64,000 bases of DNA from Malacoraja senta (lineage: Eukaryota): the NCBI GenBank assembly GCA_038087875.1, contig CM075989.1, forward strand, positions 22,446,001-22,510,000, written 5' to 3'. The position numbers were made by a program, and so were the translations under genes. How positions within the stretch are numbered: the stretch's first letter is position 1; the number at the start of each line of letters is the position of its first letter. Below, piece after piece: positions 28,685-28,925 of the stretch. The notes beneath the pieces were generated by a model. That model was not told the DNA's origin, searched no databases, and saw only the letters and a program-made list of their open reading frames with translations.

Positions 28685-28925
28685 CTGAAGATCGACACAA
28701 AAAGCTGGAGTAACTCAGCGGGACAGGCAGCATCTCTGGAGAGAAGGAATGGGTGACGTTTCGGGTCGAGACCCTTCTTCAGACTGTCTGAAAAGTCTGA
28801 AGGGTCTCGACCCGGAATGTCACCCATTCCTTCTCCCCAGAGATGCTGCCTGTCCCGCTGAGTTACTCCAGCTTTTTGCGTCTATCTTCGGTTTAAACCA
28901 GCATCTGCAGTTCCTTCCTACACAC
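28685..28925. mobile_element. Penelope-derived fold-back element
   Basis: Near-perfect inverted arms around 28783-28800. Confidence 0.85.
28755..28782 (-). ncRNA. Minimal type-I hammerhead ribozyme motif, consensus-perfect copy
   Basis: CUGAAGA-A-GGGU(CUCG)ACCC-GAAA-CGUC: conserved core, stem II, palindromic ACGU helix III, GUC cleavage triplet. Helix I is weak; activity untested. Confidence 0.7.

What the first reader, a model, noticed from the sequence alone, without database searches (positions are those of the whole stretch)
28755..28782. Family of more than 20 minimal hammerhead-ribozyme motifs dispersed across the window
Seen: the 28-mer CTGAAGAAGGGTCTCGACCCGAAACGTC or decayed versions occur on both strands, e.g. 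4675, 4740, 7193, 15156, 24634, 25472, 26432, 26795, 28447, 28755, 34985, 39392, 40211, 46873, 57381, 59777. It parses as hammerhead core CUGANGA, one extra A, stem II GGGU(CUCG)ACCC, GAAA, palindromic ACGU helix III and a GUC triplet. Established: Penelope-like retroelements carry minimal type-I hammerheads with palindromic helix III that cleave as dimers. Inference: at about one copy per 3 kb this genome may hold a very large number of potential self-cleaving RNA sites, which would matter if this is an intron. Caveats: only about 2 Watson-Crick pairs of helix I (GU/AC) are evident, and most copies have core mutations, often CpG decay.
Basis: partly seen in the sequence, partly recalled or inferred. 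Interest (0 to 1): 0.8.

Follow-up and report, generated by a model that had tools for sequence, protein, structure and literature searches.

The report
Penelope retrotransposon hammerhead, 0.8 million copies
This 28-letter motif is the hammerhead-ribozyme-shaped part of a Penelope-like jumping gene, scattered through this genome in an estimated 0.8 million mostly short, mutated copies that likely do not cut RNA but whose ends likely record how the element copies itself.

Summary
The motif is real: all 16 listed positions check out, the window holds 50 copies and the genome 18,728 exact 28-mers (about 0.8 million copies estimated, 4% of sampled DNA). It is the minimal hammerhead in the terminal repeat (pLTR) of a Neptune-like Penelope retrotransposon: longer copies carry RT and GIY-YIG sequence upstream, and intact 3.9-kb elements (hammerhead, 1212-aa ORF, hammerhead) exist. 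Helix I covaries in distant relatives, so the fold is genuine. The inference of very many self-cleaving sites is weak. Only 53 of 440 sampled copies keep the core, helix I is 2 bp, no two intact copies lie within 300 nt on one strand, and the reported copy is predicted to be buried in a long hairpin with its inverted partner. 5' ends pile just upstream of the core (only 6 of 440 at the cut site), so the templates were likely uncleaved. Head-to-head pairs join one long and one short 3' end (39 of 49), often with target duplications. One 13-unit tandem array looks like a retrozyme. Known kind since 2014; cleavage untested.

The parts
28755..28782 (-). Minimal hammerhead motif: C3-A9 at 28782-28776, extra A 28775, stem II 28774-28763, GAAA 28762-28759, CGUC 28758-28755; predicted cut between 28755 and 28754
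   Evidence: Exact match; parse read from the sequence; features as in PMC4209133
28753..28784 (-). Helix I: GU (28784-28783) pairs with AC (28754-28753); the third position is an A-C mismatch
   Evidence: Sequence; 36 of 53 core-intact copies have 2 bp; first two pairs covary in relatives
28685..28786 (-). Left arm of the insertion: short pLTR copy from about -31 to +70 (position 0 = base before the predicted cut), ending at the proximal 3' end
   Evidence: Profile hit E 1e-33
28786..28924 (+). Right arm, head-to-head with the left: long copy ending at +103 with the tail; its hammerhead core is broken
   Evidence: Profile hit E 1e-40; arms 95% complementary over 91 nt; no target duplication found at this locus
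4607..4870 (.). Second head-to-head pair, short plus long
35111..35317 (.). Head-to-head pair, short plus long; its hairpin gives the weak Rfam microRNA matches
39327..39581 (.). Head-to-head pair, short plus long
55226..55428 (.). Head-to-head pair, short plus long
7170..7572 (-). Longer 5'-truncated copy: end of the GIY-YIG ORF (7572-7495), 3' UTR, then the hammerhead
   Evidence: tblastn with the intact protein, E 6e-5
34571..35083 (+). Longer 5'-truncated copy: end of the GIY-YIG ORF (34571-34747), 3' UTR, hammerhead at 34985
   Evidence: tblastn E 4e-5
15052..15186 (-). Solo long copy with intact core
28346..28478 (-). Solo long copy with intact core, 308 nt from the reported copy on the same strand: the closest intact same-strand pair in the sample

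Best explanation
The motif is the minimal hammerhead in the terminal repeat of a Neptune-like Penelope retrotransposon, and its roughly 0.8 million copies are likely short reverse-transcription products of uncleaved element RNA, most of which likely cannot self-cleave. Shown: the motif flanks intact RT-GIY-YIG ORFs; copies end at two 3' sites (about +65 and +102); short copies stop at a sharp edge 1-6 nt upstream of the core; a third lie in head-to-head pairs that join one long and one short end. Inferred: the element protein makes a staggered cut (7-17 nt duplications); each DNA end primes reverse transcription inside the RNA, one at each site; the cDNA runs through the intact hammerhead and off the RNA 5' end, likely a transcription start at the initiator-like TCAGTCT; the two cDNAs are then joined head-to-head. 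In the active element the hammerhead likely cleaves slowly, as a dimer or with the element's protein.
For: Exact 28-mer directly downstream of RT, thumb, Zn-linker and GIY-YIG sequence in L006 and L013. EN C-terminus within 700 nt upstream of 22 of 253 copies, including the reported copy's subfamily. 7 of 16 fetched stretches are hammerhead-ORF-hammerhead with unbroken ORFs, 97-99% alike. 5' ends: 259 of 440 at -31..-26 (about 51 of these run on upstream) against 6 of 440 at -1..+3; 24 of 60 young copies end at -35..-26 and 0 at -72..-36. Pairs: 39 of 49 long+short against 24.3 expected, p=2e-5; duplications of 7 nt or more in 24 of 49 against 0 of 49 controls; 5 of 5 classifiable young pairs are long+short. 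53 of 440 keep the core, 3 with helix I of 3 bp or more; 318 genome-wide with a 3-bp AGU/ACU helix against 32,203 GUC-type cores. In vitro precedent for two internal RT starts, extension of both strands, uncleaved template and protein-assisted cleavage in an anole Penelope (PMC11167929).
Against: No RNA data: only contigs were served, so neither a transcription start nor cleavage was seen. No extra G at the 5' edge (7 of 48), which a copied cap might give. Another 121 of 440 copies end inside the hammerhead (-25..-2), so RT stalling or palindrome-guided joining also shapes the ends. Helix I covaries in relatives and the first two pairs are kept in all subfamilies here, which argues for selection on the fold. 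A 13-unit, 99% identical array with one target duplication fits rolling-circle copying of a cleaved and circularised RNA. The Penelope start site in D. virilis lies about 120 nt upstream of helix I, behind an intron (PMC2377424, PMC4209133), not beside it.
Confidence: 0.75

Rival explanations
1. The hammerhead is active in vivo: tens of thousands of core-intact copies cut host transcripts, as dimers in trans or with help from the element's protein, and tandem units cycle through circular RNA as retrozymes.
For: About 60,000 strict-core matches genome-wide. Helix I pairs 1 and 2 are Watson-Crick in 27 and 26 of 27 clusters of relatives. A 2-bp helix I is described in D. virilis Penelope (PMC4209133). 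Array L374 has 13 intact motifs at 384-nt spacing.
Against: Only 3 of 53 intact copies have more than 2 bp in helix I. Nearest intact same-strand neighbours are 308 nt or more apart, most several kb. A competing hairpin is predicted to be more stable than the hammerhead shape, and the reported copy pairs with its inverted arm at -196 kcal/mol. Core decay in copies is not significantly slower than in invariant flanking columns. Published minimal motifs show no monomer and low dimer activity.
Confidence: 0.2
2. The sharp 5' edge is not a transcription start. It arises because cDNA ends snap back or anneal at the interrupted palindrome TCAG-T-CTGA, or because RT stops there, which would also make the head-to-head pairs by self-priming.
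For: Several inverted junctions are centred on this palindrome. Palindromes at inverted junctions were read as self-priming in rotifer Penelope (PMC3846280). Many arms end inside stem II.
Against: Solo copies show the same edge (112 copies). Snap-back of one cDNA would copy that arm and would not by itself give a partner with the other, longer 3' end, as 39 of 49 pairs have. 22 of 60 young copies pass the site and then rarely stop for 37 nt.
Confidence: 0.3
3. The edge is a 3' splice site (pyrimidine tract, CAG), as in D. virilis Penelope where the intron ends at helix I; splicing would supply a new and better helix I.
For: Pyrimidine-rich upstream sequence ending in CAG in all subfamilies; precedent in PMC4209133.
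Against: Short copies share no common upstream exon; most keep the G of the AG (84 of 112); no GT..AG joint among the 15 best-supported joints shown (contigs only).
Confidence: 0.08
4. The repeat is an independent SINE or MITE, or the hammerhead likeness is chance.
For: Short uniform length, very high copy number, hairpin-shaped pairs; no Rfam hammerhead match at E up to 1.
Against: Continuous with the Penelope ORF end and 5' UTR; covariation score 0.43 against 0.13 in shuffles, 0 of 500.
Confidence: 0.02

Closest known systems
Minimal hammerheads of metazoan Penelope-like elements (Cervera and de la Pena 2014, PMC4209133)
   Same: Type-I core, extra base after A9, G10.1-C11.1 pair, palindromic 15.2-16.2, position in the pLTRs, mostly solo copies and opposite-strand pairs.
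   Different: Helix I is 2 bp rather than 4-5 and helix II 4 bp rather than 7-8. About 60,000 strict-core motifs against 4,000 (coelacanth) and 9,000 (Xenopus), with different search rules. No shark or skate entry found in the one supplement file searched.
Poseidon element of Anolis carolinensis, PAc (Frangieh et al. 2024, PMC11167929)
   Same: Two internal 3' ends about 35 nt apart (the tail), A/C-rich distal end, hammerhead about 65-105 nt upstream, copies that carry the uncut hammerhead.
   Different: Here the ORF starts at +136, downstream of the tail, not inside the hammerhead, and has the Neptune-type Zn linker. The coupling of one long with one short end per insertion was not stated in the parts read.
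Neptune-clade EN+ Penelope-like elements (as described in PMC8557442)
   Same: Single RT-GIY-YIG ORF, DKG motif, CX2-5CxxC linker, CCHH motif, partial tandems, inverted 5'-truncated partner, optional tail.
   Different: ORF is long (1212 aa) with a Pro/Ser-rich N-terminal third; clade not tested by a tree with named references.
Animal non-LTR retrozymes (bioRxiv 10.64898/2026.07.22.740005)
   Same: Array L374: 13 tandem 384-nt units, each with the motif, made of pLTR sequence; the preprint gives 363 bp as the mean for its one chondrichthyan genome.
   Different: The window's copies are solo or inverted, not tandem; circular RNA not shown.

Membership tests
PLE minimal hammerhead (min-HHR) | Core boxes CUGANGA, GAAA and NUH in type-I order | tested here: met
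   Sequence; kept in all young intact elements, with GUU
PLE minimal hammerhead (min-HHR) | Extra base between 9 and 10.1, G10.1-C11.1 pair, palindromic 15.2-16.2 | tested here: met
   A at 28775, GGGU/ACCC, ACGU; features from PMC4209133
PLE minimal hammerhead (min-HHR) | Helix I of 4-5 bp (2 bp in the D. virilis variant) | tested here: inconclusive
   2 bp in 36 of 53 intact copies, 3 or more in 3; 2 bp also in 5 of 27 clusters of relatives, where pairs 1-3 covary
PLE minimal hammerhead (min-HHR) | Located in the pLTRs that flank an RT-EN ORF | tested here: met
   L298: motifs at 1338 and 5256 around ORF 1501-5136
PLE minimal hammerhead (min-HHR) | Self-cleavage as a dimer or with the element protein | not testable with these tools
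   Needs a bench assay; no raw RNA reads served
EN+ Penelope-like element | One ORF with RT and C-terminal GIY-YIG endonuclease | tested here: met
   RVT_1 E 7e-6 and GIY-YIG E 0.0014, both under Pfam cut-offs; GIY-YIG passes its cut-off in L013; motifs read
EN+ Penelope-like element | Partial tandems, inverted 5'-truncated partner, optional 30-40 nt tail | tested here: met
Neptune clade | CX2-5CxxC linker between RT and EN, and CCHH motif | tested here: met
   CNRKRCNTC linker; CIRCSRC and two His in the EN. The linker is shared with Nematis
Neptune clade | Placement in an RT phylogeny with named references | not tested
   No clade-labelled reference sequences were returned by any search
Rfam hammerhead families | Match to a covariance model | tested here: not met
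   No hammerhead family among 11 matches at E up to 1 in the window
Non-LTR retrozyme | Two or more consecutive tandem units each with a complete motif (window copies) | tested here: not met
   No such array in the window; met only by L374 elsewhere in the genome
Non-LTR retrozyme | Circular RNA made by self-cleavage | not testable with these tools
   No RNA reads

The most novel reading that the evidence does not exclude
The genome holds a very large in vivo record of the unsolved Penelope transposition cycle: each insertion is made by a paired complex that primes both cut DNA ends, one at each internal site, and runs off a start site placed right at the hammerhead; and the 13-unit array is a rolling-circle copy of a self-cleaved circle, so a hammerhead with only 2 bp of helix I and a GUU site still cleaves in vivo with protein help.
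Probability: 0.3. Interest if true: 0.7.

Novelty: new member of a known kind. Interest (0 to 1): 0.42.

Why it matters
As a class this is known: minimal hammerheads of Penelope-like elements were described in 2014. What this genome adds is scale and testability. About 4% of sampled DNA is this one pLTR fragment. Intact, nearly identical young elements give a native protein-RNA pair for the open question of what the hammerhead does. The long+short pairing and the sharp 5' edge are statistical, in vivo constraints on how Penelope elements insert. The many head-to-head pairs would form long RNA hairpins if transcribed, which may matter more to the host than self-cleavage.

Tried and rejected
Rfam scan: no hammerhead match; the microRNA matches are below gathering scores and stem from inverted pairs. 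First profile was misaligned (239 columns) and was replaced by an ungapped-seed profile; the reversed-sequence control (0 hits) was run only with the first. Excess conservation of the core: not significant in copies (0.050 against 0.067, p=0.19), and between four clusters 1 of 11 core columns differed (a CpG column in a 15-copy cluster) against 10 of 51 downstream columns. A family with a GUC/GAC helix I: 0 matches. Cap-derived extra G: no excess. Spliced copies: no shared upstream exon among 181 flanks. Host gene: no convincing Pfam match in 35 of 83 unmasked window ORFs or 90 of 311 flank ORFs (one hit at E 0.0009 under its cut-off); ORF 36116-36340 found no relative; intron or intergenic stays open. 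Sequencing runs: no RNA holder listed, contigs only; laying four runs on L134 gave no RNA ends and no splice joint among those shown, and loose ends near -33..-30 in three organisms are only a weak echo of the edge. Tandems at 5.4-6 kb spacing proved to be duplicated blocks with truncated elements. The 1318-aa ORF in L052 proved to be a chimera. Lunse et al. (PMC5785218) is not held; only its title was seen. Earlier scan notes: none found. No structure or complex prediction was run.

Full report
Numbering: position 0 is the base before the predicted cut (hammerhead N17); the core starts at -27.

Observation. The 28-mer is exact at 28755-28782 on the minus strand. Each is followed by the same 65-105 nt, so the motif is the head of a short interspersed repeat. 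The genome (1.94 Gb) has 18,728 exact copies, with 0 for the backwards control. A profile finds 440 copies in 794 kb: 50 in the window, 221 in the window plus 100 kb on each side, and 219 in 53 stretches of 10 kb that I took at regular positions on contigs C1-C10. That scales to 0.80 million (bootstrap 0.60-1.01 million) and 4.0% of sampled DNA; small contigs were not sampled.

What it belongs to. Upstream of the exact 28-mer, L006 and L013 carry RT, thumb, Zn-linker and GIY-YIG sequence. The EN C-terminus lies within 700 nt upstream of 22 of 253 copies that reach the core, among them copies of the reported subfamily and two in the window. L134 is a decayed full-length partial tandem. A search with a young copy listed 150 matches at 98-100% identity; of 16 stretches fetched, 7 are hammerhead-ORF-hammerhead with unbroken ORFs, 97-99% alike. 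L298 encodes 1212 aa with the DKG motif, RT motifs, a CNRKRCNTC linker and a GIY-YIG domain with CCHH. The linker marks Neptune and Nematis (PMC8557442, passages); no tree was built. The closest named proteins come from Chiloscyllium, Mobula and Stegostoma at 63-73%, so the host is probably an elasmobranch.

Is it a hammerhead? It has the features listed for Penelope minimal hammerheads (PMC4209133, parts 1-2 of 4 read). Rfam gives no hammerhead match. A core pattern with free flanks retrieved 121 metagenome loci; 20 of them also match the Penelope protein. In 27 clusters, helix I pairs 1, 2 and 3 are Watson-Crick in 27, 26 and 18, against 15.0, 10.5 and 9.1 in shuffles. On 23 rows (21 of the 27 representatives, six near-duplicates left out, plus two from this genome) the covariation score is 0.43 against 0.13, 0 of 500 shuffles, and slid controls give at most 0.12. 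The pattern fixed the core, so this tests the helices only, and the clusters are related. The fold is therefore selected in the wider family. Here helix I is 2 bp, the low end of the range (5 of 27 clusters also have 2).

Do the copies cleave? Untested, but probably most do not. Of 440 copies, 83 keep core and stem II, 53 also keep the ACGU pair; helix I is 2 bp in 36 and 3 or more in 3. Strict cores number 32,203 with GUC and 27,601 with GUU; 318 have AGU/ACU. Within subfamilies the core decays at 0.050 against 0.067 for invariant downstream columns (p=0.19). Intact same-strand neighbours lie 308 nt to 37 kb apart. For the reported motif a competing hairpin is predicted at -7.5 against -3.9 kcal/mol for the hammerhead shape (core contacts are not scored), and with its inverted arm the locus folds into one hairpin of -196 kcal/mol. 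The youngest lineage (4.7% divergence) and all intact elements have GUU; that GUU cleaves more slowly than GUC is recalled, not looked up successfully. Published minimal motifs gave no monomer and low dimer activity, and the anole motif cleaved only with its protein and was not needed for insertion in vitro (PMC11167929, parts 1-2 of 4).

What the ends show. 3' ends fall near +65 (220 copies) and +102 (161), 59 elsewhere; in intact elements the sequence runs on into the 5' UTR (ATG at +136), so both ends are internal, as for the anole element's two RT starts. 5' ends: 259 of 440 at -31..-26, 121 at -25..-2, 6 at -1..+3, 54 further in. Of 227 anchored copies, 51 continue upstream, 64 are in inverted pairs and 112 are solo; in solo copies the match fades over T-28 (93), G-29 (84), A-30 (65), C-31 (51), T-32 (54) to background. 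Among 60 young copies, chosen by a pattern that starts at -10, 24 end at -35..-26, none at -72..-36, 22 further upstream and 14 inside the motif. So the templates carried the uncut hammerhead. TCAGTCT fits the initiator consensus (recalled); Penelope has an internal promoter (PMC2377424, passages) and an initiator-like TCACT was noted in a rotifer pLTR (PMC3846280, passages). Run-off at a start site is my best reading of the edge (about 0.55); the palindrome TCAG-T-CTGA is the main rival.

Head-to-head pairs. 146 of 440 copies form 73 pairs within 60 nt. Arms are more alike than random arms (85.5% against 79.1%; subfamily columns 0.83 against 0.57). Of 49 classifiable pairs, 39 are long+short, 7 short+short, 3 long+long (24.3 long+short expected, p=2e-5); 24 pairs with an arm outside both classes were dropped. 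Flanking duplications of 7-17 nt occur in 24 of 49 against 0 of 49 controls, and in 27 of 151 solo copies against 5. Five of five classifiable young pairs are long+short. The reported locus is such a pair, without a duplication. A tail on one end only has been noted before and was read there as endonuclease resolution or self-priming. I infer that both ends of one staggered cut prime reverse transcription, one at each site.

Against a purely dead motif. L374 holds 13 units of 384 nt, 99% identical, each with the young motif. The unit spans -156 to +235 of the element with the ORF interior missing; the array ends at +68 and has an 11-nt flanking duplication. This fits rolling-circle copying of a circle made by cleavage and ligation, but also copying of a tandem transcript or later unequal crossing-over. 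It matches the retrozyme definition of a 2026 preprint (part 1 of 5 and passages read).

Context and novelty. No host exon was identified in or near the window, so an intronic position is open. Searches for a description of this element in sharks or skates returned none; the library lacks most subscription journals and repeat databases were not available, so the family may be catalogued there. One supplement file of PMC4209133 could not be searched and the preprint's supplements are closed. Reviews PMC6155905 and PMC6765202 were seen as passages. Verdict: a real, very abundant new member of a known kind; identity 0.95, most copies inactive about 0.8, paired priming about 0.7, start-site run-off about 0.55.

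Noticed in passing
L374:2718-7730 (G000:C1:28902217-28907229): 13 tandem 384-nt units of pLTR sequence, each with an intact young hammerhead, flanked by an 11-nt duplication; retrozyme-like and the best substrate for a cleavage test.
   Followed up: partly
L052:2122-6075: A 5'-truncated young Penelope inserted in frame into an L1-type ORF2, giving an unbroken 1318-aa frame with AP endonuclease, RT, second RT and GIY-YIG.
   Followed up: partly
L298-L306: Intact, 97-99% identical full-length elements, several in partial tandem, suggest recent or current activity.
   Followed up: partly
window 11123-11327, 12087-12392, 14058-14286, 30537-30824, 36929-37242, 55613-55870: A different family of short elements with terminal inverted repeats sharing CTGTCCCA; MITE-like (label recalled).
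   Followed up: no
window 1047-2382, 5677-6961, 20911-21497, 53217-54499: Fragments of LINE-type retrotransposons; RVT_1 at 1582-2382 and 53220-53939, ALKBH8_N matches at 5807-6259 and 53220-53939.
   Followed up: no
window 36484-36551 (+): Weak CPEB3 ribozyme match, 22.2 bits against a gathering score of 35, E 0.21, 150 nt after a non-repetitive 75-aa frame (36116-36340) with no relative found; probably chance.
   Followed up: partly
window 7727-7935 and about 15 other places: Another abundant interspersed repeat with a shared head of about 57 nt; SINE-like (label recalled).
   Followed up: no
L167-L287: Metagenome contigs hold the same 27-nt core with at least six different helix I sequences, 20 of 121 beside Penelope coding sequence; 22 of 127 matches have GUU.
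   Followed up: partly
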